From positions 254,255 to 318,254 of the forward strand of contig NMRA01000162.1 in the NCBI GenBank assembly GCA_002633005.1: a DNA stretch of 64,000 nt, written 5' to 3'. The notes under the pieces are model-generated. The model saw nothing but the letters and a program-made list of their open reading frames with translations, was not told the origin of the DNA and ran no database searches. This stretch comes from Phoronis australis (Eukaryota; Animalia; Phoronida). The translations under genes and the position numbers were made by a program. Of the stretch, positions 36,001-54,800 are shown piece after piece. How positions within the stretch are numbered: the stretch's first letter is position 1; each line of letters opens with the position of its first letter.

Positions 36001-39000
36001 CCGTCCGTCCGTCCGTCCGTCCGTCCGTCNCCAATAAACAACCCTAGAAGGATACCGTATGCGGTGCAATTGTGGGCGCATTTCAACGCTCTGCGTTGCT
36101 CTTGTACTGAATGTCATGCCTTGGACTGTCACATCCGACTATCCTTCCAACTAAAGTAAATACTCTAGATTTCGTTAGATTTTGCTAATCTCTGTCACTC
36201 AACAGGAAAACGGTTAGTGCGGTTAGTGAGACATTTTATGCTATGGTGACCATTTCTGCTGGAAGACAGCTAGATGTAATGAATACTGTCTGATATTACC
36301 ATAAGCCCAAATAGTAAACCCTTGCAAATGAACGATAGAGGTAATTAATGACTTGAATTCTTCCAAATGTGTCAAATAAATCAGAAAAATCTCACCAATT
36401 TAGGACAAAAAAGGTTGTAATGTGCTATGTATAATTTATGGAAAAACGAGAGAGAAATATTAATATCACCTGTCTTCCATATTGTATCCTGAATAGGGTT
36501 GGGCACCGGTTTCCAGTGCCATTGTGCTTGGCATAATGTGATGTCTACTCGCCAGAGACAACATGACGAAATTTCTAGGTCACCCAATGGGAAATGAACT
36601 CGCCAAAAATGAAGCCATGTATGCGGTTATGCAAAGTCCAAAGTGCTAACCCAGGCCTGTTAACGGCCGTTTGAGGCGGTGGGACTTTTTTCTTTTTATT
36701 TTCTGTTTGCATTAGTAGAGCTGAAAACAGGGTAATCCGTGTGCTCTATGAAAACCGTAAATATTTTTTTTTGAAAAATTGGGGTTGGTGTTTTACTCAG
36801 ATTGCCAATTTGAGTTAAAAACTACCAGCCCAGGGAATTGCCTACGTATCGGCAATTGTCACCATGCAGGAATTGAATGCAAAGAGGACAGAGTGCTGAC
36901 AATGTGCTGCTCATGTGTCTTTTTTGTATGTATTGTGAGTGGACTTTTACAGACCATTAAAAGTGAAAATTTGAAAGTTAGACGTCGGCGTTTAGCCGAA
37001 CTTGGTCTTGAATTGAAAGCAGAAAGTAAAGCCTGGATTTTCTACTCAGTGTTCAAGAAGTGTTATCCGTCAGTTTCTTTTTTGTGCAGAGTTTCCTGGG
37101 TTTTGGCCAGAGTGCTGAAATCGATGTAGTACTAGACGGACAAGATCAGAGAAAGGTCACAGAGGTCAGGACAGAAGATGGCAAGAAGGAAAAACTATTT
37201 TTATACTACGACGGTGAAACAGTTTCTGGAAAGGTTGGTTACGTCTGTTGTCAGAGTGTATTGTTAATGACATAGCTGTAGTTTATAAAATCTGCAAACA
37301 CTTAAGAACAAAGACTGTTATCTGCATTAATCTTCCTATCCTAAGCCCTGGATAAGGTGCATGAACTGTGAAGAAGAATAAAATGCACAACATCTACAGA
37401 ACTAGCCAATAGTATTCAGACAAAATGACCTGTAATGCCTCCTGGTGGCAGAAGGTGAATTCATTGTCAGAACAATGTTCTCTCATGGCCTAGAAGGAAG
37501 GGAAATTAACAGGAAAGTTAGTGAGGTGGCTAAGAGATTATGTAATTAAAAGTTTGCCACCTAATAGTTACCCACAGATTTTTGCTGCTAAAGGAGAATG
37601 CCACCCGATTTAATTACTCTTGTTTACCTTCTTAATCGGTCTATATCCTCACCTCTTATATGGTCGACCTCACCTTGCCTAGAGGTGTCGCGTTAACCTG
37701 TGACGAAGGTAAGAAACGACGTAGCGACGTCAGTGGTTCATCTGCAGAGTGAATGCCTCTATATTGCGGTGCATGGTTCCCGCTTGTCCGAACTATGAAG
37801 CTGCGAAGAAAGCGAGCATATCGTTTTTTCGACTTCCTCTAGAGCCCGAAATGCTTAGGAAGTGGCTCGTGGTAGTGAAGAATGAAAGGTACGTTATTAA
37901 TAGCAATTATGAGACCCTAAAACGTCTCCGTGTCTGTGGCTGGCATTTCATCGACAGTGATTTCTCTCAGTTACGAATTCCGGCTTACCAAAAAACTGTC
38001 CTTATTTTCCATTGTCTGTGCATGTTCACGGCGCCTCTAGTATTTCTTGATCAGTGTATTCCGGTTTGAACTGATAGCCTGTGAAACCTAACGATCCGAC
38101 CCGTGAAGTCTTCGTCGGATGAGCTCTTGACTAAGTCGGGATTGGCGCCGGGCGAGTTGCCATGTAGACGTTTATTCTGCGTTGTGTTTCAAAATGAATT
38201 ATTCTCATCCTAACCAATGCTTATATAAAACTGAAACAAAGTCTGTCTCACTAGGTACAATTTGTAATGCCTTTGCAGTATTCTTTAGTGCAAATGTTGA
38301 GAAGCCAGCAATGAATAAACCCGCACTGCGTTACCGGCTTTTGATGGTGGCAATAAAGGTAATTGACCAGGCACAGAGGCCGTGTGAGCGCACGCTATTT
38401 CAGTGTTTGCTGACAGAAAGCTGTTGCGAAAGAATCACTCGATTTTGTATGCTATGGTCGCATGTTAGGGGAATCTTTATTTAGAAATACAAATCATTGT
38501 TACTGTACAACCTTTGCCCTGACGGTCTGTGGAAGGTTTCGTGGCTAATTCACAAAATTAATTACGTGCACATTATTTCTTTGGCTCACTAGTCTTTGTG
38601 ACTGGAGGTTTAGTTTCCAGCTCAAGCTGGTTTATGTCCATGCCAGTCCCGGCGGCCGCGATGGGCTTGATCGGGTGCGGAGCCACTGGCCGGGATAACG
38701 AGTCAGTCCGGTCGCGACGTGGGGCCTGATCGGGTTCCGAGCCACTGGCCGGGATAACCAGCGTTTTGTGTGTTTAGAACTCAAAAACCACAAGTCTAAA
38801 TAACACAGATCTAAGTTCTCCTGTCTGTATTTTACGGAAAAATACTTACGAATTTATCTCCGAACAGACCCCAAACTCCTGCTACGGACCTTGGTAGATT
38901 GGCCTGCTGAACTTTGTATGCTATGGTGTGTCCAAATACCAATAAATCCGTAACAGTGAAATAAAGCAACACGTTTTTATAAGAATTCAGTGTATTTTTA

Positions 39001-42000
39001 AGGGTTTTACATTGATGATTTATTGGTGTTAAACGATGAATTCAAGCGATAAGCTGACACCAGTAACCCTTGTTGTGAACTGCTGAACAGACTGCGTGTG
39101 AAACCAATGATGTCATTGGATAATTTCAACACCTCCGTCTGCCATCAAGTGTCTGGTAACACAGCCGTTATCGATCTAAATTGATACAAAATAGGTTTAT
39201 TTTTTGGGTGGTATTTTCCTTTAACAGAATTGGCAGTCATGTCGGGGGAACGGCATTTTGTCTGGTTGTATCCTGATTGTATGTCTTGTACAGTACTCAA
39301 AGGTGCAGCATGCAAGTGAGTAGCAGACCCCTATACATTAACAAGTAACTTAACCCCGTTAACGTTTTCATGAATATTAATGACCAGTTTGATGCACAGG
39401 TACTTGTATGAATGAGTGTGCGAGAGCTTTGTTGTTAGTTCACATTGTTTAGTTTATTTTCGTGATGTTGCGGTTCATGGTATTCTTAGTAATTCTGTGG
39501 CTCTTGCAGACATTCTTGTCACTGGCTTGTGGGTATGATTGTCTGGTACCCTTGAATCGATTATTGTTTACAAACCAGCCGAGGTCTTTGAACGTTAAGC
39601 TGAGTAGAACCAACTACATGAAATATGATGTATTTTGAGGAGACCTGTTCTAAATTTTTGTTTATATAATTGCTTTTCTCAGTTCCCTCAACAACTTGAT
39701 GTCCCATAGGCGAGGCAATTATTGTTTGAACTTTTTTCCATGTCCCGGTGACTATCGTGTTGTGACAGATCGCACTGGAAGCATTCCATTATTTTACTGC
39801 TGTAGAATTGGCATTCCATTATTTTGCTAGAAAAAATGAATGTTTCTTTTGAAGACTAATTATGTTGTACCACAGACTAGAAGACTGGCTGGCAATAGCC
39901 TTGGTAAGTGTCTTTCAATAAGGTGGCCATCTTTAATGCTCTGCAGAAGACTAACAGAATACGATATTTCCATTGACAACTGCAATGCTGGTTGTAATTA
40001 CACTGTGGCTGGAGGTGGACCCGCTTTTCATTTTTGAAAGTGTACCTTACTGTCAGAAAATCAATTCCGTGAAGCAAATTAGCAACTTATCTGAGCAGTG
40101 GTTGCTTATTAATTGAAAACAAAAGTTGAGGGTGTTAACATAGTTGACTGCTGTGGTGTCGCTAGAGGTAGCATGCATTAGAATTTCTTCATTCATGAAA
40201 AATAAGAGATTGTTGCATCCAAATTTGCCTGGTTGCATCAATGTACGGTGTTTAGTACCATATTGATTGGCTAGGGACATGACAAATAGTCACATGACAA
40301 ATAGGCATATGACATTGACAAATAGTCGCATAACAAATAGTCTCATCTACGGGAGTGACAACTTAATAACCGTTAACTTCTACTTCAATAGTTTGTAGCT
40401 AGATCTAAAGTATGTCTGTGTAACATAATGGCTAATTAGTTATGAATTTAAATGAAATACAGCTGAAACATCATCATGACACATTTCTGTGATGAGCCAA
40501 GTCAATGTTTCTTGACAAAATATGATCTATTTTCTGAGTCAGTTGAGTAATGTAAGATGTGCCTGTCTCAGACTGATGCATTGGAGGTTCAGTTAGTGTG
40601 CAGGTAAATTTAATTATCTGTGAGGGGTTGTTTGTTCATTTGAAATTGCCATTTAGTGACAGAGGTGGATGTTCTCATGTGCATCCCAAAACTCGGCTCA
40701 CAGGCTGCGAAATGCTGCTCGACGCAGGGTCAAACTAACAAAACACGATTTGCAAACCCGAAATATTTGTGCCCGAACTCGCAAACTTGGCTTTACCAAC
40801 CCTCAAAACACGGTGCACATTGTTTTCATGAAACAGCTTACAAACCACTTGTGCTTGAACTGACAAACATGTTTGACCTACCTCCAAAACACGATGCTCA
40901 TACTGCACTCACAAAATGGCTTAGAAACCAAAAATACTTGTGCCCAAACTCACTGACTCCAAATAATAACAGTGGACTCGCATTAACTTAGCTTACACAC
41001 CCAAAATATTTGTGCCCAAGTGCTCAAAGAGGGGTCCGTGAGCCATGACATTATTTTGCATCAGCCCATTTTTTGCATCAGCCGTGTCTTGTGAGTCAGG
41101 CAAGTGCTTTGCGGTCGGTGGGCTGTGTTTGTTTGGGTCGGTGTAGAATGAGTCTATCATGCCTGTGAGTCATGTTTGTAAGTGAATTTTATATCAATGC
41201 AGCAGCCAGTGTTGTTTGGGTATCCTGAGTTGCGGTCATCTGGTGTGTATCTCCTCTGAGGTGTAGTCATCTGGTGTTTTATCTCCTCTGAGATGTCATC
41301 TGGTGTGTATCTTCTCTAAGGTGGTGTTGACTAAAGATGTAGTCATCTGGTGTGTATCTCCTCTGAGGTATAGTCATCCGGTGTGTATCTCTGAGGTATA
41401 GTCATCCGGTGTGTATCTCTGAGGTGTAGTCGTCTGTTGTGTATCTCCTCTGAGGTATAGTCATCCGGTGTGTATCTCTGAGGTATAGTCATCTGGTGTG
41501 TATCTCTGAGGTGTAGTCGTCTGGTGTGTATCTCCTCTGAGGTGGTGTTGACTTAAGGTTGGTGGATACACAAAAAAATTAATTTTGACTGTTTTTTACA
41601 TTTTCATATCATCCTAATCTTTAATTCTTGATGCACAGTATACTGAAGAAAAATAAAATCATTCTGAAAATCCAAAGTTGTTTTTTTAGCTATATTTGAC
41701 CAAGCCTCAGTAAGTCATACGGCTTGAGTGCTCACCAGCTCAGTGATTGACAACTGGGGCGGAGCTAAAATACAAGGACACTAGCTCCAATCTAACCCTG
41801 TCAACAAGCATTACGTAACCGGGCAATCGAGAGTGATGTACCAGCTGATATTGGTGTTGTAGCAAGACCAAGAATAAAACAATTCTATTTTTGACCATGT
41901 GAAAGTTAGTAGTGAAATGGTGAACTAGCTCCTGTTCCGAGCCTGAGCCTGTTTGTCTATCTGCAAAAGAATTAAGTTGAGTACGCCAAGCCCTACCGAA

Positions 42001-45000
42001 GCCATCACTGCACTCAGCTTGAGGAGTCCGTGCAGAAATTGTGCATGTATAAGAGAAGTCGGTAATATGAGGTCAGTTGTCTTGCGAGAGAACGCTGAGT
42101 GTCGACGTGGGTGGTGTTGCACGATTCGGTGAGAGTGCATGCACGCGCTGTGAAGACAAGCCGCGCGCGCGACACATGGACAACTACATGCCGTCAGAGT
42201 AGAGTATTCGCAGATAAACCGTGCTTCTGTGCTGGGAACGTGCCGTGGAGAAACTAGGCTGTCAAACCCAGAGGATTTTTAACTTGCCACTGGCCGTAAC
42301 CCAAAGAATTGGAGAAATGACCCAGTGTTCAACATAACAAAAAATTTTCTAGTGCATAGATTCAAACGTAACCCTGAATTAAAACTCATATTATACGATT
42401 TTAGAGGAAAGCCATATAAGAAACTTTAGTAACTTGAGAATCTCACCCAAGCGGCGCTATTTGCGCAGAAAGTGATATTTTCTTATCCCAAAGTCCATTC
42501 GGTAAAGGCACGTAAAAATGTTGAACCGTTACTATGAAAGTAGTTCTTTATCCTCGTCGCCAATATTGTTATGTAGGCATTAACGCGGCGATTTGATATA
42601 ACACATACATGTATATTGGTTGATGATAATATTGGAATACTAACAAATAGGTCTGTGTAATATAGTTAGAGAGTCTTTTACAAACTGAGTGGAGAGTTCA
42701 GATGAGTCGTTTAAACAATCAACACATGGTGGTCGGCACACCAGTACAGCAGACAATAGATCAACGCTAAGCTCCGCCCACGTGACAGCCATATTTGTTT
42801 TTGGTCGTCTGTCGTGCATCACAAGTTCGACAAATTGATTAAAATTACGCTGTAAACAAACAGGTATGTCACATTTTCTAAATATGAAGTAAATATCAGC
42901 TTTATTTCTTGTACTTCAACAAAAATTGGAACATAATGACCACGCATTCTGAACGAAATTTGATCTCAAGTGGCAATCGATGACCGCTTAACTTCAAAGC
43001 CGTTTTTCACGGCTCGTGATTTCAGGATAGTGACACGATTCTCGGGCCTATTTTTCCACAACACGTGGGTCAATTTTAACGAAAGTTGCAAATTTGAAAT
43101 CCTCTTGGACTGAAGTAAAATCGCGTGCCAGGGTTTTTTGATAAATGGACCAGATTTTTAGTTATTAGACGGAAAGTGACCAAATGACAAAAAGTGGCGT
43201 GCTTGCCCCAACTCACACGCAAAAAATGCCACAAAATCAAGATCATAATGATTTTGTACATATATTTGGTATGAATAAGTAGAATATTGCGTAAAGAAAT
43301 AGTTGATGATGATCCCTGCGCATTTTGAAAAAAAATTCGAGGTAAAATTGGATTTGTTGAAAATTAAAAAATACGATTTTTTAAAAAAACGAACAACAAA
43401 AAAAATTTTTTTTTCGATTTTTGTCACTTTCAGAGTCATGTCTAACTAGTTAAAACTCCCTTTTTACTCATTTTAGTTAGGAACCTGGAGATTTGATCAG
43501 TGTATACACCTACCTTAACATCTAGTTGGAGTTGTCTGAGTCAGGAACCAGGACTTCAGGGCCCGATTCATCGTGGATCGTGTCCACGGTCGCACCTAGT
43601 CGTAATTGGAATTGCGACGCTGCAACAAAATGTTGCATCTGGCAGGAAGTTAGTAATTTTTCTTGTTCACACTTTACAACTGCATGTCGAAGTTACAACC
43701 GTGTAGCGAAGACCTTTGATGAAATAGGTGCCAGGAGGTTATGTGTGTTGGAGTGGTGTGGTCTCAAGGACTTAACAAAATGTCTCAGTGAACTCACTGC
43801 ACCGATTGTGAGATTTTTGATTTGCGTACTCCTTCAATTCTGTTCAAGTCGTTCTGGTGTTAATTTCAGGTAAATGTCACATTAAAGAAACAGGGGTCAA
43901 AGTTAGAACACCAAGGAATCAAAATAGAGTTCGTAGGTCAAATAGGTAAGTATTACATGCTGAACTCTTCCTCTCTAGTCAGAGTAACAAGAGCAGTGAT
44001 AACTGTAGACTTGTGTTGTATCTTTGAACTGGTTTATGATGAGTTAACAAGTGTCTGACTGCATTTTTATTTGCTGATAAGCAACTAGTGTCTGGAGTTG
44101 CCTGCACAAGGTCCTTTTGTGAAACTTGTTTGTCACGAGGATCCTTTGGCTAGGGGCAGGGCTTGTTTTTGGTTCCACTTTCTTTGAATTTTACATTTAT
44201 TTCAAATCATAGAACAACCGGTCCTACCAAATTATTAAAGTTCACTCATAAGTTACTGAAAAAACAACACCAGAACATAAATTGCTGCTTATTTAAATTA
44301 ATTAATGTTCTGTAGACTATATAGCTTTTCAGATGTAATAAATTGAATTTGCTCCCAAGCACATTAGAGAGTTCGTTTTTGTTACATGTTTCAAAACAGT
44401 GTTGAACGTTTTAGGCTCTCAGTGTCTGTCTGCCAATATATATGAAACCATTTCATTTTTTCACATTTAAAAATGAAAGTACGGAAAGCTCAATTTGTAA
44501 ACGCTTGTTCAGTTTCTCTATAATCATCAATTGTGCGACTTAAATGATGGAAATGTTAAAGATCTGAGCTTATACGGTTACCATGGAAATCGATACAAAT
44601 TGATCACTGTAAGCAAGTATTGATCACTATGAGGAGATCTTGTGAATTAAATGAAATGACGTCTGCTGCCTGTGTGGTCATGCAATAGTTGGTTTATGGA
44701 CCAGTAGCTGGACTATAAGTTGACTTTCGACTGTCTAGTTAGTTTATCACCAAATAGCTCTATTAGTCCGTGCTTAGAATTCATGACCTTTACTTTAAGT
44801 GCCGTAGTTTGCGAGATTTTAGCCACTGTTATTTCTGAAGTCGTTGTCAAACACTTGTTTAAGGTGAGCGCATTGAACAAAGGTCATTGTTACGTGCAGA
44901 GGCGGATCTACGGGGGGGGGGGGGGGGGNGGGACAGGAATTAAAAGAAAAAAATGTCTGTCCATTTACTGAAGACTTAGGTCTGCTACTGATGTGATCTC

Positions 45001-48000
45001 TTCAAATAAAGCATTGTTATGAATTGCCACTTTATTTGTTGTGAAATATGACAAGTACATAAATGTGACAACAGAGTGACAACACCTTCTTTTAGACAAA
45101 TCTGACTACCGTCGTGTCTCGTAGTGGCAATTCTATTTTTTATTTTTGTCTCTGTATCTCCAGAGTTCCCATACATATATCTATGAAATTTTGCAAACCG
45201 GTTTCCATGAGAAAGACGACAAGGCCTTCCTATTTTAGTACAGGTTCGGTGTATTCACCTAGTTGACATTTCGTGGTGCCACTGAACATCCTTAGAATCA
45301 CATTGTGTGCGGTGAAGTTGTGGGCTCATTTCAACCCTTTGTGCTTCCAGTTGAGGAGTGTATGCCTGGTGCTAATTTTGAGATGTGTTCGTTTACTGTG
45401 CCGTCCCTTAGTGGCAATTAATTTTTTTTTGCGTATGGCTCTGTGCCTCCAAGTGACATCTTTAATTTCACATATTACTAGATACCAATCAACATTCCAA
45501 GAAGGGTCTTTTTTGCGTTTTTTATTCTTTTGCTGTAATTTGATGGTGACATGCTCAGCAGATGAAAATATTTTGTAACTATCATTATTTCAATGAAACA
45601 GTGGCAGCTAAGGAATATTAGAACGCGAAAACAGGATGCGATATTTGCACCATGTTTACATTTTGTTCTCGGGGAGAGAACCCTGTTGTGAAAACGCAAC
45701 AAATGCTGTGACAGTTATACCCTTACTCTGGTCAACTTAATTTTTTCATTGTTTTGCTTACAGAACTATACTATGACCGAGGGAACCATCACGAATTCAC
45801 GTCACTGGTCAAGGAACTGGAACGACCGGGCATTCTCACACAGAACAAAACATATAAATTTGAATTCGTACAAGTAGAAAAACCATATGAATCATACACG
45901 GGGGCAAATGTTCGACTACGGTGAGTACTGTGGCATAACGACGAAGTAAAAGAAACGTTTTGCTTTTAGCTAAAGATGAAACGTGATTGTAATGTGTGCA
46001 TGAAACTTCCTTTAATTTTGTTCACTTGTTACCAGATGTTGACTAAAATGTATTGTATAATGTGTGCGCCTATATTCAAAATGTATGTTTCAAGAAACAG
46101 TTTGCTCACAAGTAGGTTGCATTGGCGCTTATGCCTAAGGTTCACTTGCAGGCGTAGGCGGCTATCTCTTGAAAATTGCTTTAAACTGAGTATTTTTCTC
46201 GCACTATGTCCATTATTACTGTTACTCAATGAATATAGTCAAGTGTCGGCCATTTTGACTTGCACAATATTTGTAAAAGTAACTGTTATCTCCTTGGTTT
46301 TATTCAAGAGTTTGACACGCAGGAGCATGTGCCTTATTTCAGGTATTAGGGGGCAGCTTCACATATAGTCGCATGTGCCTTATTTCAGGTATTAGGGGCA
46401 GCTTCACATATAGTCGCGTGTGCCTTATTTCAGGTATTAGGGGCAGCTTCACATATAGTCGCGTGTGCCTTATTTCAGGTATTAGGGGCAGCTTCACATA
46501 TAGTCGCATGTGCCTTATTCCGGATAGGAGCAGCCTATGTGGTTGGTAATTGTCTACAGGGAACTGGTGAACATAATGTTTGGTCATGTTTGTGTGTTGG
46601 ACTAAAGAGGTCACTGATGGTTTTGTTTTGAGCAACCTGGTGACCATTTGACGAAGCTCCGTTTTACTTCTAGGTACTTCCTGCGAGTGACGATAGTGAA
46701 ACGACTCAGTGACCTAGTGAAGGAAATGGACGTAGCTGTACACACGCTCTCGTCGTACCCAGAGATGAACAACAGCATAAAGATGGAGGTTGGCATTGAG
46801 GACTGTTTGCATATAGAGTTTGAATACAACAAGTCCAAGTGAGTGCAGGCCTATGGTCTCTGTGTGTGTGTTATCATCTTGTTAGCTGTGGTGGATCACC
46901 ATTCTGAAAGGTTGAGATGTTCTTCAATGTTGAGTCACAGAAAGATGTACTTTGGGATGCTCAACGATTAATTTTTCCCAGCAGTCGCAGTTAGTTGTTA
47001 AAATTGAACCACTGAATCGGATGCAAATTTGGAAGCTCTATATGCTGTGACTCTTTTTTGTGGGAGAGTACTTCAGTATTCAAAGTACCTTTGTCTTAAG
47101 TTTCACGTAAACTGAGACATTTTACCTCGGTCTGTACAAGTTAGAGCTGTAGAAAACTTTTTGATTAATGTTAATACATTGTGGTGTAATTTAGATATCT
47201 TAACTTGCTTACATCAGTCTGAGTAGTTAAGCTACCGCCTGGCGGGTTATTTCTGGCACTGTCTGCATAGTGACGGAACTGCCCCATCTTGCTTATGATA
47301 TCCGCCACTAGGTACCACCTGACCGACGTTATCGTGGGTAAAATCTACTTCCTGCTGGTCCGCATCAAGGTCCAGTTCATGGAGTTGGCCATTGTCAAGC
47401 GCGAGATCACTGGATCAGGTAGTCACTCGTCTCCTGTGTGGGGGCGTTCTTTAGTTCAGTCTTTGTCCCCCGTTGCTCACTTTTGTTGTTGTCGCAGCCG
47501 TTGTACGCATCGCCTTCACTGGGTCGCCATCACTTTGTTGAGAAGCAAACATAGCTGGAAACATGGCTGCTTTTAGTATTTCCTACATCTCTGGCAGCAA
47601 TCTGGTATTATCCAGGCATTGCGATTAGTTAAGGATGATACTACTGTAAACTGTACGTAAAAATTTCCAAGATTCAGCAATCGTGGCGTAATCATAGGCG
47701 CAGAGTTTCAAAAACAACTTTGCTGTCTCTGTTTCAGTGTCAGAGGACTGGTTTTGCCCCTGCAAGTAATTTTCCTCGTATGCCAGTATTTTTCCATGAC
47801 GTGCCGTTTCTCTGCCATGTTTGCTCTTTGTCTCAATAGTTGCGACTCGCGTCGGCATTATTTCTGCCTAGCTACCAGTTTAATTTAGCTCACACAGACC
47901 TGCTGTCGGTTAGCTATCATCCGCGTCTCATCCGGGTTACTCAGTTCCTCCGTACTTCTTCAGTGGATTACGTTTGCATGTGTTTATGTTGTGTAGGTAT

Positions 48001-51000
48001 CATTTGAGGGACGTCATAGTGGGCAAGATCTACTTCCTGCTAGTGAGAATCAAGATCAAACACATGGAGGTGCAGATCATAAAAAGGGAAAGCACAGGCT
48101 CAGGTAGTTGTCGCCTCACTCACCGCTCTGTACTTTTGCTCTTTACAACCAGGGCACTTGATCACCTGAGGGGAAGGATGTCTGTGTCTTCTTGAAGGGA
48201 TTTTTTTGATCGAACGGAAATTTCTCATCTCATGCCTACGAGCGTATTAGAAAACCTAAAAAGCATATTGATGTTATCCAAATAGATGTCCTGAGGTATT
48301 CTTCCACAAATGTTCAGTGCTCTACTGTGAAACGTCTGCTGGTTTTGGTGGTTAGCGCTGCCTGAAATCCGATTCCTAGCATATGTTACCTTATGGAATG
48401 TAGTAATTATTATAACCTCAGTTGAAATTTGCTTATGTCTCATTAACCAACTTCTTTAGTTCTCAGATTTATTTGAATGTTTTTCCTTTCTGAAATAGCA
48501 CAGGTCGGTGATACTTTCACAGTGTTCAAGAAGATTCCTTTTAATTAGCTCTGTCTCTATGTAGATGAATACTCCTTGCTGTGGTCTGTAAAACCGGGGG
48601 TGGGATGGTATAAATTTTTAGGAATTCTATTTGATTCTCAATAGGAGGTATTTGATTATTTTCAATAATTATTTATTCTGACTCATTTGTCAAATTAATT
48701 CATTTCTTTCAAATGCAAGTAGTTAACTTACCATTAGCGCCAATTTTAGCAACAAATTTGTTAAATATGATAAAATGTCCTCTAATGGAGCTGTTTGCTT
48801 GTTTAGTATCTCAATAATGCTCTTCAAAAGATACAAAAATGCCGCACCCAACAGCGAAAATTAGAATTGAATCGAAACAGGCCTTGGCATATTAATATCG
48901 AAATCAGTTGCTCCGGCCACATTTCGATTAGATTGCAATTTGATTATTATAATGTTCTCACCCTTATGTAATACCTGAACTAATGTTAAATGAAATGAAA
49001 CCAAATTTCCGGGAATTCACATAATGTAGGTGAACATAATGGGAAGCTACCTTGGAGAATGGATCAGCTCAAAACTTGTAAACGCCCATAGTATTGCCCA
49101 CCCCTACTTCACACTTGAAATGCCCAAACTACAAATTGGTGCTTTAGTTTGTCTTTAATAACCTTTCCTTTAGCTCTTGATTTCAAGCTTGCTCGTACAG
49201 TGTCTGTTCTTAAAATACTTCTCACTGCTATCTGGCTTCTTCACAAAGTCGTCATCTGTTACTGGTTACCATCTTCGGTCAAAAAACTAACTTTGTTTAG
49301 ACTACTGGTCTCGGCTTGTTATTTCGAAGGGATTTTGAGCTTGCTTGGGACTGGTGGATCATTACTACTTAAGACCAGGCTCAGTCTGTTGGCTTGATTC
49401 AGACACCAGATGGAGTACTCATTGGTTTGTTGCACAAAACCTTGAGATGGGACCAGCTATCTTGATCGAGTCTGTTCTCTAGCAATGTGTATCAAAACTA
49501 CCAGTTCGTCCTATGCGTAGAAATCCATTCTAAAATACAGAACAAGTTGAGGCCGATTTTCAACCGTTAATTTTTTAATAGTTTTTTTAAAATTTACTTA
49601 AAAGATTCATTCAAACAAAGATGTGATGCTAAAGCACGCGTTTACCTTGTTCTACTGGAATTGCTAAAGTAGATTGTGACTCATATGTTTCGCATGATAA
49701 CGGGGTGTGCATTGTTGTTATATTTCAGGGCCGAATACCTTCAATGAAAATGAAACGATTGCAAAATATGAAATCATGGACGGTGCCCCAGTCAGAGGTG
49801 AGTATTTCTTTTTACAAAGTGTTTGTATTGCATTTTTAATTTTAAATTAATGTAAGGTTGCCATAATTAATGTGATATTAAGATTGACCTGATTGGAACT
49901 CTTAGTCAACTCTTAGTCAGGCAGATGATGACTGCTCGACTTGTTGCATAGTTGTGTGCTGGATTTCATCGGTGATGTCACGTAACCACACATCGTATTG
50001 CCGACAGAGTTGTGCAATTCGTGCTGTTCAGCCTCGGTGTTTTTTTGTACGAATGTTCGTTAAGTACCATTTCCCTGGACTGTTGAAACCAAGAAATTTC
50101 CGACATCACGATCTGATCTAGTATCATAATGCTGTGGTAGTAAGCGGGTCAGAGCTTACAGTCACACAAAGGAATCAGCTGGTGAATGAAAGTCAACTGT
50201 TTTCCCTGTCCTAAGTTTTTCTGGTAATTATTGTATTTCATACAAAACACATTCTTCTTTTCGACATTAGTTGAGCATCATTTGAGATAGTATTTTTAAA
50301 TATCATTTAGTGTCAGGCGCTCTGTTCACAACAATAATTGCTGGATTACGTGACCTTATCAGATGAACGTAGACAATGAGAGAGCTGGAGTATATAAACA
50401 TTGGTTTGCTAACTTTCTTCCTTTGCCTCGCTGTCAAAACTGATATAATGACATGGCTGTATCCCGACTAGCAAGTCGGTGAAATCAGTGTAGTCGTCCC
50501 ACAGCGTATGTACGTAAAGTTGTTTAATAGTGCTATACTTGCGAATAAAACCTAGCAAACAACAGGGCTTCGAAAGAATTGACGGTCTTTATAAATTGAC
50601 TTGCCGTGAGTATAGTCTCAAGGCACAACCGACTGCCACTTCCTGCTAACCTAGAAATCACTTGAGACCACGTTTTTAGTGAGAAGTAGTCTAAATCAAG
50701 AGTTCACTTCTTGCATGGAACACCGGTTTATAACACCTTTGTCAATATGGGTCTTTTTGTTTGGAGGTCTACAGCTCTGTTCTTGGAAATGTTTTTTATG
50801 CGTGCGTCTGATGTTTTTTTACTTTGATATAGGCGAGTCGATACCGATACGGTTGTTCCTGAGTGGATACGAGTTGACACCGACAATGCGAGACATCAAC
50901 AAGAAATTCTCAGTACGGTACTACCTAAACCTTGTTCTAGTGGATGAAGAAGAGCGGAGATACTTCAAGCAGCAGGTGAGTGTCTCTGGAGGTGTTTCTA

Positions 51001-51894
51001 GTGGGCTGATGAAAACGACGCGACTTAAGATATGCTTCTTGAGCTGTATTGAAAATTTTTTTGTTTGAACATTGTCCTTTTAGTAGACCAGTGAAAATGC
51101 ATTGGTGGAGATGTGTTTCTTGTGCTCTGTTGAGAATGTTTTGTGAGAGTGTGATTGTGCTTCTAGTGTTCTGGTTAGAATGCCTTGTGTGAACGTGGTG
51201 CTTCTGCTGCTCTGGTCATAGTGCCTCGTGTGAACATGGTGCTTCTGGTGCTGTGGTGGAAGTGCCTTAAACTTCACAAAGAGAGTCAGACTGTATAAAG
51301 TGGCACAGTACATGCTATTCAACTTACGATTAGTTGAAATCAAAACCAAATCTGGACGCGACGCTTAGCATAACACCAAATGAAACCTGGAAATTTCCCA
51401 GGTTGCCAAATAGGAAGGGAGATCTCCAACGTCCTTAGCAACAACCTTAAATGAAATAAAAGATACGTGGAGCAAAAAAACGGTGAACTCTGCAAATGTG
51501 TGTCGGTGCATCCTAAATCAGGGTGATCTGCACATCTTTCCTCTACCTGTCTCATACATGGGCATTCCGATACTTGCTAAACGATTCCGACTTGGTTAGT
51601 TTTCTTCCCGCAGTATTTTGAGTGCATGCTCGGATGTGTGAATAGCGACTTCCTGGCGACCTGGAATTTTTCCTACGTCGCCCAACAATGTGATGCCGAC
51701 AAATCGAGCCCTGCAACTACAGTACCCAGTCATATTAATCTCTGTTGTAGGAGATCACAGTATTTCGCAAGGCGGACAAAGCACGGCGGACACAAGGAGG
51801 TGGCAGAAAAATGGAGGAGCAGGAGGCAATGAAACGACACGAGCCGGACTTACTAGCAGGAAGTCAACAGGCTGATGGCAATGAGGAACAGTGA
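33040..51894 (+). CDS. VPS26: Retromer subunit VPS26; coding exons 33040-33042, 37090-37233, 43870-43945, 45764-45920, 46674-46838, [47312-47418 OR 47997-48103], 49729-49797, 50833-50975, 51751-51894; 335 aa
   Basis: MSFLGFGQSAEID...YYDGETVSGKV...LEHQGIKIEFVGQIELYYDRGNHHEF...[27 protein letters not shown]...YEIMDGAPVRGESIPIRLFL...RRYFKQQEI. GT-AG introns, in phase when one of the two 107-nt exons is used. Confidence 0.95.
33747..34285. mobile_element. Second copy of foldback/MITE family A
   Basis: TAGACAGTGACCACC...GCGCATAGAGGGTCACC... and inverted GGTGACCCTCTATGCGC...GGTGGTCACTGTCTA; homologous to 3810-4435. Confidence 0.7.
35953..36105 (+). mobile_element. Minimal HINE/DINE-1-like (Helentron-associated) element
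   Basis: 5' T tract, subterminal IR ATGCGCCCAC (35958) / GTGGGCGCAT (36072), 5' palindrome CCACATATTTATATGTGG, (CCGT)n microsatellite, 3' hairpin CAACGC-TCT-GCGTTG. Confidence 0.7.
37090..37233 (+). CDS. VPS26: VPS26 exon 2
   Basis: SFLGFGQSAEIDVVLDGQDQRKVTEVRTEDGKKEKLFLYYDGETVSGK. Confidence 0.95.
37592..39220 (+). mobile_element. Kolobok-like transposon derivative carrying a THAP-domain ORF fragment (37749-38069)
   Basis: TIRs AGGAGAATGCCACCC / GGGTGGTATTTTCCT flanked by CTAA / TTAA. ORF CMVPAC...SFFRLP...RKW...RVCGWHF fits the C2CH THAP zinc finger. Internal tandem duplication at about 38645-38760. Confidence 0.75.
41235..41553. repeat. Minisatellite, 28-31-bp unit, about 10 copies
   Basis: GTCATC(T/C)GGTGTGTATCTC(CTC)TGAGGT(G/A)TA repeated. 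Confidence 0.9.
43870..43945 (+). CDS. VPS26: VPS26 exon 3
   Basis: VNVTLKKQGSKLEHQGIKIEFVGQI; GTAAGT donor. Confidence 0.95.
45764..45920 (+). CDS. VPS26: VPS26 exon 4
   Basis: ELYYDRGNHHEFTSLVKELERPGILTQNKTYKFEFVQVEKPYESYTGANVRLR. Confidence 0.95.
46324..46520. repeat. Minisatellite, 45-bp unit, about 4.4 copies
   Basis: GC(A/G)TGTGCCTTATTTCAGGTATTAGGGGCAGCTTCACATATAGTC repeated. Confidence 0.95.
46674..46838 (+). CDS. VPS26: VPS26 exon 5
   Basis: [55 protein letters not shown]. Confidence 0.95.
47312..47418 (+). CDS. VPS26: VPS26 mutually exclusive exon 6a
   Basis: 107 nt, YHLTDVIVGKIYFLLVRIKVQFMELAIVKREITGS; AG/GT intact. Confidence 0.85.
47997..48103 (+). CDS. VPS26: VPS26 mutually exclusive exon 6b
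   Basis: 107 nt, YHLRDVIVGKIYFLLVRIKIKHMEVQIIKRESTGS; AG/GT intact. Confidence 0.9.
49729..49797 (+). CDS. VPS26: VPS26 exon 7
   Basis: GPNTFNENETIAKYEIMDGAPVR. Confidence 0.95.
50833..50975 (+). CDS. VPS26: VPS26 exon 8
   Basis: GESIPIRLFLSGYELTPTMRDINKKFSVRYYLNLVLVDEEERRYFKQQ. Confidence 0.95.
51751..51894 (+). CDS. VPS26: VPS26 last coding exon
   Basis: EITVFRKADKARRTQGGGRKMEEQEAMKRHEPDLLAGSQQADGNEEQ*; TCTGTTGTAG acceptor. Confidence 0.9.
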   Translation, partial: EITVFRKADKARRTQGGGRKMEEQEAMKRHEPDLLAGSQQADGNEEQ

Positions 51895-54800
51895 GGCCTG
51901 CTTGCCTGTCAATCACGCACGTTACATTGCGTTGTCTATGGCAAAAGTGAAACCGTGGTTGAGTTGTTGTTGACGATAATCAGACGACAGGACAGCTTCA
52001 GTGTGTGGGAATAGAGAAACTTTGTCGGAGAGAAATGCAAACTGATTGGTCGACTCCGGTTTAATGAATTTTTGCTGCATTCATCTTTTTTATGGATCAT
52101 ATATTTTCATCAGTCATCCCATTTGGATGTTAATGGTCGAGGAATAGCTTATGAAGAGACAGTTGCTGTGGCTTCATAGTTTTCCTGTTTAACTTGATCT
52201 TGCCTTCTTGAAAAAAAATGATATTTAAAATGTCCTCCCGATGTTGCAGTACTGACTTTCAGATGGGGGATTGAATCTTTCAGTTTGCGTCAAAAATTTA
52301 GCTGCCGTCTGTTGGTCATTCTGTGTACTAAGTGTGGCGTACTGATCCAAGAATGATGCAATTTCATTGCGACAATACTCTGCTAAGGTCACTGTTAAGT
52401 TTCCTGTCCAGTTCGTTCCTCCTACATTATTTTAAATTGATTAGTTATAACCCTCATGCAGAATGTTCAGGAGTGCCGAATCAGTCTCTGAAACAATTGA
52501 AATAAGTGCTTGCCATGTTTTTTGCTCCTGAGATGTAACAGGGAAGTGTTGCTTTCGCTTCATCTGCTTGTCTTGTTCATACTGCCGTTTCAAGAACTGT
52601 ATCTGACGGTGAACTGGATACGAACACCACTCATTGACAAGTTCTCTTTTATGTTAGTAAACGATAAATTTCTTGGTAGTGTTGTTCATTGTCAGCATGT
52701 TCTATAGCCAATGATGTCAAAAGAATGCGTCTCAATCACATCTTTTCTCAATGTCTGCTGCTGTTCACAATTATTGCCATTTTCACAAGTTTGTAAATCG
52801 CAGTCTTTTCAGACAACCCCTTCCCGTGCCCTGAAAGTGTTAAAATGTTGGCATTTTTTAAGCCAGTATTCATTTACGTAAACTGCTAGGTAGGTTTTAT
52901 ATTTTCTTGTTGGTGTTCATCCATATAACGACATTTTTCTGTTGAAAAATCAGTACATAAAGCATTGAATGCTTGTCTTTTCACTATAATTTCTATGTTT
53001 TCAAAAGCATGCGCCATATTACTGACCCCTCCCTAAATTGTATGTTTTATCGACTGGTGGTAATAGCGATAATTTTGTTGTTTTAGCTGGACATGATAAC
53101 TCGTACGTTATTTCTCGATTTGCTCCTTTGCAGTATATCTGTATGTTGTGGAGCAATCCACTTTCTTTGAGTGAATTTTTAATAATGGACACGTTCCAGA
53201 GTGTCCCAATGCCATTGGACTGGAACGGAGGATTTACAAGTTGAGCGGGTGTACTGCAAAGTTGTATTGTTGGCAGTCATTTCCTATTGACAGTCAGTAA
53301 ATGCTTTTCGCCGATGCTGCTTGCAGAGATCGGAGACCTGCTATTAGATTAAGTATTTCTTTTCCAACTACGGAGCATACTTTATGAAACTGATTCTAAC
53401 TATTGTGTATTTAAAGTTGCATAAATGATTGTAAATAAGTTGTACAGAATTCAACATTTAGTTGTTAATCGTGTTGTTGAGAGCACATCATCAAGTCTCC
53501 ATGCTTCAGGTGGAAGGTTAAACATGTGCTTACAGTATATTGCTATATTTCAGTTATCTTAGGTATAGTTATAAATCACGGTTAACCCGTGGTAGTGTAG
53601 AACCAGTTTGATGTAGGAAAATCTAATCATGTTTTTATTACTTGTTATTAGTCTAAAAAGTCCTACTAAAGTAGAGGCGATTCTCCGTCTATGATGACCC
53701 ATTCCACAGAGTTGCTGATGCGCTGGTCATTACTCTTGGTTGCTGGTAGCTCTCATGTTCTGCTCGATGTTGTGAGTGCACTCGGCCTAGTCAATATTTT
53801 TTGTTGCACAGTTTGTGCAAGCATAACGTTGTTTCATTTTAGTAAATCTTTGATGCAAACAAGCACATGCCCTCAATAAACTGGGATGGTAATGGTCAAC
53901 CATACTCCTTCAGTAGTTTGACAAGCTTAGTTCGATTTGCTAGTAGAGTCTTCAAATAAGAAAAAAGTTAATTCAGCAGAGTTCTATTCATTAAATGTTG
54001 TTTGACTGGTACAACCGTAGTATTTTATGTTTGTACATCTGAAGTGCTTGTGAAACAATTCTTCTTGTAGAAATACAACGAATTCACATGCGACTCCTAT
54101 CCCACAAACACCCACATATTTGGTGATCAACCATCTGTTTGGATGGTAAAAGAGGACCCTTTCTTTTGCCATTAGCGCCACCTATTGAATATTGAGTCAC
54201 CCACTGAAAACCCAGCATTATGTTGCTATGGAAATCTTGCTTGTTTTATGAAAATTTCTCTCTTCTGCCATATTGTCCTAAATTAGTGGGTTTTACCGAG
54301 TTTGATTTTTTGAAATCCCAAAAGGTAGCAAGAGAGGGCGACGTTCATACAGAGGGCTTTGTAGTTGTTGAAATTAACCATTATACTCCATTGTAGTTAA
54401 CATTTGAACAGAGGATGACATCGTTCATTATTGGAATTCAGTTGGGACTGGAAGTTGCATAATTTCAAGTTAATTGCCAGGTAAACACTATGTAATACAG
54501 ACAAAATCATGAGTTGTCTTAACACTGTTTGAACTTCGGTCAGAACTCGGCATGTTTTGTAAAACTTGTTTGTTGTAGCAATGTATCACTGATCTTTACC
54601 TTGCAGACAGCTTTTCAAAGCTGTTTTTATTGAACATTTGGTGTTATTACGATAATTGTACAGCACTATGGAGCAATTGTGGAAAATGTTGTAAATGATT
54701 TAATTATTATTATTATCTGTTATATTGATTATAGATTATTGATAAATAGAAAACATCAAATAAAATGTTAATTCTGCTTGTTTGAATTCTTACTTTTCGT

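What the first reader, a model, noticed from the sequence alone, without database searches (positions are those of the whole stretch)
47312..48103. Old, selectively maintained mutually exclusive exon pair in VPS26
Seen: two 107-nt exons with the same phases (2/1), intact AG and GTAGT boundaries, separated by a 578-nt intron. Including both or neither shifts the frame. They differ at 8 of 35 residues, 7 of them in the second half (VQFMELAIVKREI vs IKHMEVQIIKRES). In the shared block DVIVGKIYFLLVRIK, 7 of 15 codons differ synonymously with no amino-acid change, and the flanking introns show no obvious alignment. Inference: an ancient exon duplication under purifying selection gives two retromer isoforms differing in the C-terminal arrestin-fold domain.
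Basis: partly seen in the sequence, partly recalled or inferred. Interest (0 to 1): 0.75.

Follow-up and report, generated by a model that had tools for sequence, protein, structure and literature searches.

The report
Ancient two-way exon switch in VPS26
This animal's single gene for the endosomal sorting protein VPS26 carries two alternative copies of one exon, a pair also found in snails, clams and ribbon worms with the same three amino-acid differences, so these animals likely make two tuned versions of the retromer sorting complex by splicing, where vertebrates use two genes.

Summary
Every measurement in the finding checks out. RNA reads from the same or a very close species show 6b as the main exon in three runs. 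A 6a→exon 7 junction appears in one run only (3 reads against 11). No 5→6a, both-included or both-skipped junction reached the 3-read threshold.

The pair is lophotrochozoan-wide. All 32 named mollusc, annelid and nemertean taxa carry only the 6a signature (aromatic/A/V at exon positions 22/26/28) or the 6b signature (H/Q/I), and 12 of 32 show both. None of 58 other named animals shows either; 52 have H/A/I. Four unnamed animal contigs hold 107-nt 6a then 107-nt 6b.

The three residues lie on one face of a predicted C-lobe strand. The intervening intron shares two short motifs across loci, one matching the RBFOX site, so 6a is likely a tissue-regulated minor form. The tissue and the partner affected were not determined.

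It is a new member of a known class (tandem duplicated mutually exclusive exons), already annotated as RefSeq isoforms but described in no paper I found.

The parts
37090..37233 (+). VPS26 exon 2 (first identified coding exon, 144 nt)
   Evidence: AG/GT boundaries and open frame; outside the stretch laid with reads
43870..43945 (+). VPS26 exon 3 (76 nt)
   Evidence: its 3' letters appear as the loose end in front of exon 4 in RNA reads
45764..45920 (+). VPS26 exon 4 (157 nt)
   Evidence: 4→5 junction 26/15/18 reads
46674..46838 (+). VPS26 exon 5 (165 nt), common upstream exon
   Evidence: 5→6b junction 29/18/13 reads
47312..47418 (+). Exon 6a (107 nt), minor alternative; signature F/A/V at positions 22/26/28
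   Evidence: 6a→7 junction 3 reads from 3 starts in run X4 only; orthologous exon
47419..47996 (+). 578-nt intron between the two copies; covered by sense-strand reads at depth about 8 in X4 and 0-1.4 in X2/X3
47429..47435 (+). 7-mer GTCTCCT, shared within 100 nt downstream of 6a in 4 of 5 loci; candidate splicing element, factor unknown
   Evidence: p 0.0005 for any 7-mer shared by 4 of 5 (16 tests run; first seen by eye)
47975..47980 (+). TGCATG inside the 6b acceptor tract; candidate RBFOX-family site
   Evidence: within 30 nt of the 6b acceptor in 3 of 5 loci, anywhere in this intron in 4 of 5; motif-factor link from PMC4165533 passages
47997..48103 (+). Exon 6b (107 nt), major alternative; signature H/Q/I
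   Evidence: 6b→7 junction 19/18/11 reads and the X1 contig
49729..49797 (+). VPS26 exon 7 (69 nt), common downstream exon
50833..50975 (+). VPS26 exon 8 (143 nt)
51751..51894 (+). VPS26 exon 9, coding part to the stop

Best explanation
The VPS26 gene holds two tandem copies of exon 6 that splice singly to exon 7, a pair shared with molluscs, annelids and a ribbon worm and likely dating from their common ancestor, and it likely gives two retromer subunits that differ on one predicted surface strand, with 6b the default and 6a a likely tissue-regulated form. Shown: the anatomy, the frameshift on double inclusion or skipping, 6b junctions, a few 6a→7 junctions, cross-phylum conservation with three fixed differences, and pN far below pS. 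Inferred steps, with rough odds: (1) double-inclusion and double-skip transcripts are removed by nonsense-mediated decay (about 0.75). (2) An RBFOX-family protein binding TGCATG in the 6b acceptor tract blocks 6b and favours 6a in cells that express it, typically neurons or muscle (about 0.4; tissue link recalled, and from C. elegans cases in PMC4165533). (3) Positions 22/26/28 (VPS26A 206/210/212) face the same polar side of the strand and change binding of a cargo, adaptor or the autoinhibitory tail, while the invariant first half keeps core assembly (about 0.5). Both copies moved away from the ancestral H/A/I state: 6a gained the aromatic residue and V, 6b gained Q.
For: (anatomy, selection). 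(junctions; 6a use differs by run, 3 of 14 in X4 against 0 of 37 in X2+X3, Fisher p 0.017; the 6a-6b intron is covered in the same run). (RefSeq isoform pairs differing in this exon in Babylonia, Biomphalaria, Haliotis, Crassostrea/Magallana, Pecten, Mizuhopecten and Lineus; 6a-then-6b run together in gene models of Nucella, Tegillarca and Mya; 6a type in the annelid Lamellibrachia, 6b type in Capitella, Owenia and Helobdella). (4 of 4 animal loci among 8 hits have 6a then 6b, 107 nt each). (all 16 6a rows form one group, support 92/91). (32 of 32 against 0 of 58). (strand position). (intronic motifs).
Against: Only 3 reads support 6a, the tool marked that joint 'between: not known', and 5→6a was not listed; a second read lay was not available. 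The tissues of the runs are unknown. The tree support 92/91 is below the tool's starred threshold and rests on 35 columns. The TGCATG site is missing from L006 and lies 186 nt from the acceptor in L003; a motif-blind 7-mer test of that region was not significant (p 0.69), and the named-motif test was chosen afterwards. The cargo-pocket residues named in PMC13174498 (V168, F287) lie outside this exon, and no paper seen names 206/210/212 as an interface. Both exons in one annelid species were not seen. The 6a signature also occurs in 4 of 8 loci that are divergent, non-animal-like single-exon genes, so those residues are tolerated in an ordinary VPS26.
Confidence: 0.8

Rival explanations
1. The pair is real and old, but the two proteins are interchangeable; the second exon is kept for regulation, for example tuning VPS26 dose through intron retention or decay of frameshifted transcripts.
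For: The substitutions are mostly conservative. The 6a-like residues occur in single-exon non-animal-like VPS26. Run X4 shows sense coverage across the 5-6a-6b introns. No known interface maps to the variable positions.
Against: Three differences are fixed exon-specifically across three phyla with no mixed type in 32 of 32 named taxa; drift or gene conversion should blur them. The 6a frame is conserved (pN 0.01-0.13 against pS 0.45-0.96).
Confidence: 0.12
2. In this organism's lineage exon 6a is decaying into a rarely used pseudo-exon.
For: The window's 6a is the most divergent of 16 (end branch 0.25; 6-7 changes from other DNA loci against 2-3 for 6b). It is absent from 3 of 4 runs.
Against: Frame and splice sites are intact; pN is 0.09-0.13 against pS 0.79-0.96 to other 6a exons; the 15-residue core is unchanged; 6a→7 reads exist.
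Confidence: 0.05
3. The pair is ancestral to bilaterians, and vertebrate VPS26A and VPS26B each kept one exon (splice-form subfunctionalisation).
For: By phmmer, 6a scores best on VPS26A (51.1 against 48.7 bits) and 6b on VPS26B (58.7 against 55.0). The window's 6a shares Q21, L25 and I32 with VPS26A.
Against: At the three diagnostic positions VPS26A is H/Q/I (6b-like) and VPS26B is H/D/I; neither is 6a-like. Q21 and I32 are not typical of 6a, and both also occur in the leech 6b. Hemichordate, echinoderm, priapulid, cnidarian and sponge records show the H/A/I type, and arthropod records mostly do. Outgroup genomes were checked only as protein records, not as DNA.
Confidence: 0.02
4. One copy is an assembly artefact or a recent local duplication.
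For: None beyond the low read count for 6a.
Against: The copies are 70% identical with saturated synonymous sites and unrelated introns. The same order and lengths occur in four independent contigs and three gene models.
Confidence: 0.01

Closest known systems
Tandem duplicated exon substitutions / mutually exclusive exons (human catalogues PMC9741552, PMC5740500; C. elegans PMC4165533)
   Same: Homologous neighbouring exons of equal length and phase, non-3n length giving a frameshift if both or neither are used, ancient origin, conservative changes, one common and one regulated exon.
   Different: VPS26 does not appear in the main text of any of the three papers or in the one supplement held for PMC9741552. 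This case looks limited to lophotrochozoans, outside the human, fly and worm catalogues, and affects a membrane-coat subunit.
Vertebrate VPS26A / VPS26B paralogues (retromer)
   Same: Two alternative VPS26 subunits for one retromer core; exon position 26 (VPS26A 210) also differs between the paralogues (Q against D).
   Different: The vertebrate forms come from gene duplication, and their known functional difference lies in the C-terminal tails (PMC8635440 section 10). Here the tail is shared and only 35 residues of the C-lobe are swapped. The origins are independent.
RBFOX-regulated mutually exclusive exons of C. elegans egl-15 (5B/5A) and unc-32 (7a/7b)
   Same: UGCAUG in the flanking intron of a mutually exclusive pair, with tissue-specific choice in muscle or neurons (PMC4165533 passages).
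   Different: Here the site lies in the acceptor tract of the downstream exon, is present there in only 3 of 5 loci, and no binding or tissue data exist.

Membership tests
VPS26 (retromer, PF03643) | Vps26 profile match above the curated cut-off | tested here: met
   4 of 4 VPS26 exon peptides scanned score 56-83 bits, cut-off 27
VPS26 (retromer, PF03643) | Two-lobed arrestin fold closest to VPS26A/B rather than VPS26C or arrestins | tested here: met
   on the oyster 6a isoform P0204 (not the window's own protein): top hits VPS26A/B E about 1e-40, VPS26C 1e-19
VPS26 (retromer, PF03643) | Binds VPS35 within retromer | not testable with these tools
Tandem duplicated mutually exclusive exons | Adjacent homologous exons of matching length and phase with intact splice sites | tested here: met
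Tandem duplicated mutually exclusive exons | Each exon is spliced singly between the same flanking exons | tested here: inconclusive
   5→6b, 6b→7 and 6a→7 seen, 5→6a not listed. Full-length single-6a proteins are annotated in relatives, and the oyster 6a protein P0204 is also on record from Logan contigs
Tandem duplicated mutually exclusive exons | Double inclusion and double skipping are absent or rare | tested here: met
   neither junction reached 3 reads in 3 raw-read runs (low depth); both give premature stops
Tandem duplicated mutually exclusive exons | Purifying selection on both copies | tested here: met
Tandem duplicated mutually exclusive exons | Tissue- or stage-specific choice (typical, not obligatory) | tested here: inconclusive
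   run-dependent 6a use, p 0.017 on 3 reads; tissues not given
Docking-site/selector RNA-structure MXE | Conserved competing base pairings in the flanking introns | tested here: not met
   no conserved intron alignment among 5 loci, no folding z below -1.8 in 20 flanks, no complement of the shared 7-mer nearby; few loci, so a weak test
Steric-hindrance or U2/U12-incompatibility MXE | Donor-to-branch distance under about 50 nt, or mixed spliceosome types | tested here: not met
   the intervening intron is 578-838 nt in 5 loci and all sites are GT-AG without a U12-type donor; branch points were not mapped
RBFOX-regulated exon pair | Conserved UGCAUG next to the regulated splice site | tested here: inconclusive
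   6 sites against 1.5 expected in the 6a-6b intron (p 0.004); 3 of 5 loci within 30 nt of the 6b acceptor (p 0.001-0.002); absent in L006; post hoc
RBFOX-regulated exon pair | Exon choice depends on RBFOX binding | not testable with these tools
   needs knock-down or a minigene

The most novel reading that the evidence does not exclude
Lophotrochozoans evolved, independently of vertebrates and over 500 million years ago (date recalled), an RBFOX-switched neuronal or muscle retromer isoform. Its three swapped residues mark a not-yet-described partner-binding face on the VPS26 C-lobe, the same spot (position 210) at which vertebrate VPS26A and VPS26B also diverged.
Probability: 0.25. Interest if true: 0.75.

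Novelty: new member of a known kind. Interest (0 to 1): 0.55.

Why it matters
Retromer decides which membrane proteins are recycled, and why vertebrates keep two VPS26 genes is only partly explained, mainly by their tails. A second, independent origin of two VPS26 forms differs at only three fixed residues on one strand. It is a natural experiment that points to a specific untested surface (VPS26A 206/210/212) for mutagenesis in human cells. It also gives an ancient splicing marker for Lophotrochozoa, and it warns that gene models in this group are often wrong here: three run both exons together.

Tried and rejected
No whole genome was held, so there was no genome-wide check for a second VPS26 gene. 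The second read lay gave no result, so finer coverage and the 5→6a junction remain open. One search listed no confirmed RNA holder by index; the RNA runs came by species label and were judged by the lay. The first AlphaFold model (31 sequences, pLDDT 58.8) misfolded the C-lobe and was discarded. The model tools give no contacts or solvent exposure, so the 'same face' claim rests on strand parity. A full-length tree left the window's protein unresolved among lophotrochozoans; the phylum is undetermined. The genome-contig scan found 0 loci. RNA-structure, steric and U12 mechanisms found no support. The link to the vertebrate A/B split was rejected. Residue-level interface searches in papers found nothing. 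No complex prediction was sent, as no partner sequence was available. Earlier scan notes: none on VPS26 exons; the eight shown concern Asgard arrestins and were not used.
Full report
Observation. The window holds a VPS26 gene on the + strand with coding exons at 37090-37233, 43870-43945, 45764-45920, 46674-46838, 47312-47418 (6a), 47997-48103 (6b), 49729-49797, 50833-50975 and 51751-51894, all with AG/GT ends. The four exon peptides scanned match Pfam Vps26 above its cut-off. Every number in the finding is right: 107 nt each, same phases, 578-nt spacer, 8 of 35 residues different with 7 in the second half, and 7 of 15 silent changes in the shared block. Synonymous sites are saturated (pS 0.76) while pN is 0.16 (Fisher p 6e-8), and the flanking introns do not align beyond shuffles (p 0.40, 0.36). 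Including both exons or neither gives a stop 308 or 193 nt upstream of the last junction, the usual trigger for nonsense-mediated decay (established knowledge). The start-codon exon was not identified.

Expression. One contig set and three stranded raw-read RNA runs, coded as one organism, were laid on 45600-52100; about 18-19% of each raw run was read. Reads fit exons and introns at SNP-level difference, so the source is the same or a very close species. Junction counts in X2/X3/X4 were 29/18/13 for 5→6b, 19/18/11 for 6b→7 and 0/0/3 for 6a→7 (three starts, 54 letters on the shorter side, flagged 'between: not known'). The 5→6a, 6a→6b and 5→7 junctions were not listed, which means under 3 reads. 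The X1 contig uses 6b. Use of 6a differs between runs (3 of 14 against 0 of 37, p 0.017). The run with 6a also has sense-strand depth of about 8 over the 6a-6b intron, against 0-1.4 in the other two. So 6b is the default and 6a a minor, sample-dependent form, on few reads and with tissues unknown.

Conservation. Three protein searches and three cluster look-ups gave 419 stored proteins with 384 exon-6 peptides. The searches list only the best 120 of 2046 and of 2634 hits, so this is a sample ranked by likeness to the queries. Three exon positions separate the copies: 22 (Y/F against H), 26 (A against Q) and 28 (V against I). Of 32 named lophotrochozoan taxa, 12 show both types, 16 only the 6b type and 4 only the 6a type; none shows another combination. 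Of 58 other named animals none shows either type and 52 are H/A/I (names assigned by hand from the tool listings, unnamed and fungal records left out). Vertebrate VPS26A, seen only in the PDB alignments and not among those 58, is H/Q/I, an exception that I read as convergence with 6b. Both types in one species appear as RefSeq isoforms in Babylonia, Biomphalaria, Haliotis, Crassostrea/Magallana, Pecten, Mizuhopecten and the nemertean Lineus. They appear as 6a-then-6b run together in gene models of Nucella, Tegillarca and Mya. Among annelids, Lamellibrachia shows 6a and Capitella, Owenia and Helobdella show 6b; no annelid record shows both.

At DNA level, a degenerate 6a pattern matched only 6a in the window and 8 metagenome loci. 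Four of these (L002, L003, L006, L008) are animal-type genes with a 107-nt 6a followed 613-838 nt later by a 107-nt 6b. The other four (L001, L004, L005, L007) are divergent, non-animal-like genes with one copy. Between the five paired loci pN is 0.01-0.13 for 6a and 0.01-0.06 for 6b, against pS 0.45-0.96. In a 35-column tree all 16 6a rows, including the window's, group apart (92/91, below the starred level). The simplest reading is one duplication before molluscs, annelids and nemerteans split (Cambrian or earlier; date recalled), after which each copy changed from the ancestral H/A/I. The window's own phylum is unresolved. Outgroups were not checked for a hidden second exon at DNA level.

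Protein effect. A second AlphaFold model of the oyster 6a isoform (110 sequences, mean pLDDT 81.4; 87-91 over residues 201-220) puts the exon on strands 188-195 and 202-215, and Foldseek returns VPS26A/B. The diagnostic residues are 204, 208 and 210 (VPS26A 206, 210, 212 by the alignment). They share parity with the invariant E206 and alternate with M205, L207 and I209, so I infer that they share a polar face of the sheet. The cargo pocket residues named for SNX3/SNX12 complexes, V168 and F287, lie outside this exon (PMC13174498 sections 7 and 9). SNX27 binds a groove between the lobes (PMC8083963 passages). Membrane contacts are by loops 5, 6, 9 and 15 (PMC7990337 passages). None of these passages names the variable positions. 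A PDB title shows that VPS26B L197/R199, in the invariant half, has been mutated; that this probed VPS35 binding is recalled and was not confirmed. The affected partner is therefore unknown.

How the choice is made. Steric and U12 mechanisms do not fit a 578-838-nt GT-AG intron, and no conserved pairing was found. Two motifs recur. GTCTCCT lies within 100 nt downstream of 6a in 4 of 5 loci (p 0.0005 for any 7-mer; 16 tests). TGCATG occurs 6 times in the 6a-6b introns (1.5 expected, p 0.004), against 0 and 1 in the neighbouring introns. It sits within 30 nt of the 6b acceptor in 3 of 5 loci (p 0.001-0.002) and at 0 of the 7 constitutive acceptors of the window. This test was post hoc, and the motif-blind test of that region was not significant (p 0.69). 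UGCAUG is the RBFOX site and marks 11 of 29 C. elegans mutually exclusive clusters (PMC4165533 passages). I propose that 6b is used by default, that RBFOX blocks its acceptor in some cells so that 6a is used, and that decay removes errors. The intron build-up in X4 fits this but does not prove it.

Comparison and novelty. It belongs to the tandem duplicated mutually exclusive exon class (PMC9741552 abstract and section 12; PMC5740500 passages). It parallels but is not the source of vertebrate VPS26A/B, whose known difference lies in the tails (PMC8635440 passages and section 10). Searches for a description found nothing relevant. 'VPS26' + 'mutually exclusive exons' gave 0 papers; three related searches gave one paper each (two seen as listings, PMC8195618 as passages with no splicing content). 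VPS26 is absent from the main text of the three catalogues and from the one held supplement of PMC9741552. Their large supplementary tables and subscription papers were not seen. PMC2699828, PMC11331091 and PMC9636581 were read as passages only and added no residue-level data. The isoforms already exist as automatic RefSeq annotations.

Verdict. The feature is real, ancient and under selection; its class is ordinary, this instance seems undescribed, and it points to a testable surface on retromer. Interest 0.55.

Noticed in passing
window 37725-38069 (+), VPS26 intron 2: Open frame with a THAP domain (PF05485, E 6.5e-11), likely a transposon remnant inside the intron.
   Followed up: partly
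window 49940-50590, VPS26 intron 7: Repeat-like stretch with high RNA depth on both strands and many loose ends in all four runs; probably a dispersed transcribed repeat.
   Followed up: no
window 46325-46519, 41338-41543, 51157-51257: Intronic tandem repeats: 45 nt x 4.3, 28-87 nt units, and 41 nt x 2.5.
   Followed up: no
proteins P0010/P0045/P0046 and P0079: Babylonia areolata has VPS26 records on two contigs of different length, each with a 6a-type isoform, so a gene duplicate may have kept the exon pair.
   Followed up: no
proteins P0046, P0198, P0200: Extra 5-6 residues after exon 6 in Babylonia X1 (after 6a) and in Lymnaea and Biomphalaria (after 6b), suggesting an alternative donor or micro-exon in the loop that follows.
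   Followed up: no
proteins P0088, P0092, P0097, P0102, P0103, P0114 against P0104-P0108, P0111: Unnamed long-tailed VPS26 proteins split into Y and H at exon position 22 with otherwise near-identical exon 6; species difference or an independent alternative, not resolved.
   Followed up: no
L001, L004, L005, L007: Divergent, non-animal-like single-copy VPS26 genes whose sequence carries the 6a-type residues.
   Followed up: partly
proteins P0076, P0077, P0246, P0381: Public gene models mis-handle this locus: three join 6a and 6b through invented linkers, and the Lamellibrachia model starts at 6a.
   Followed up: yes
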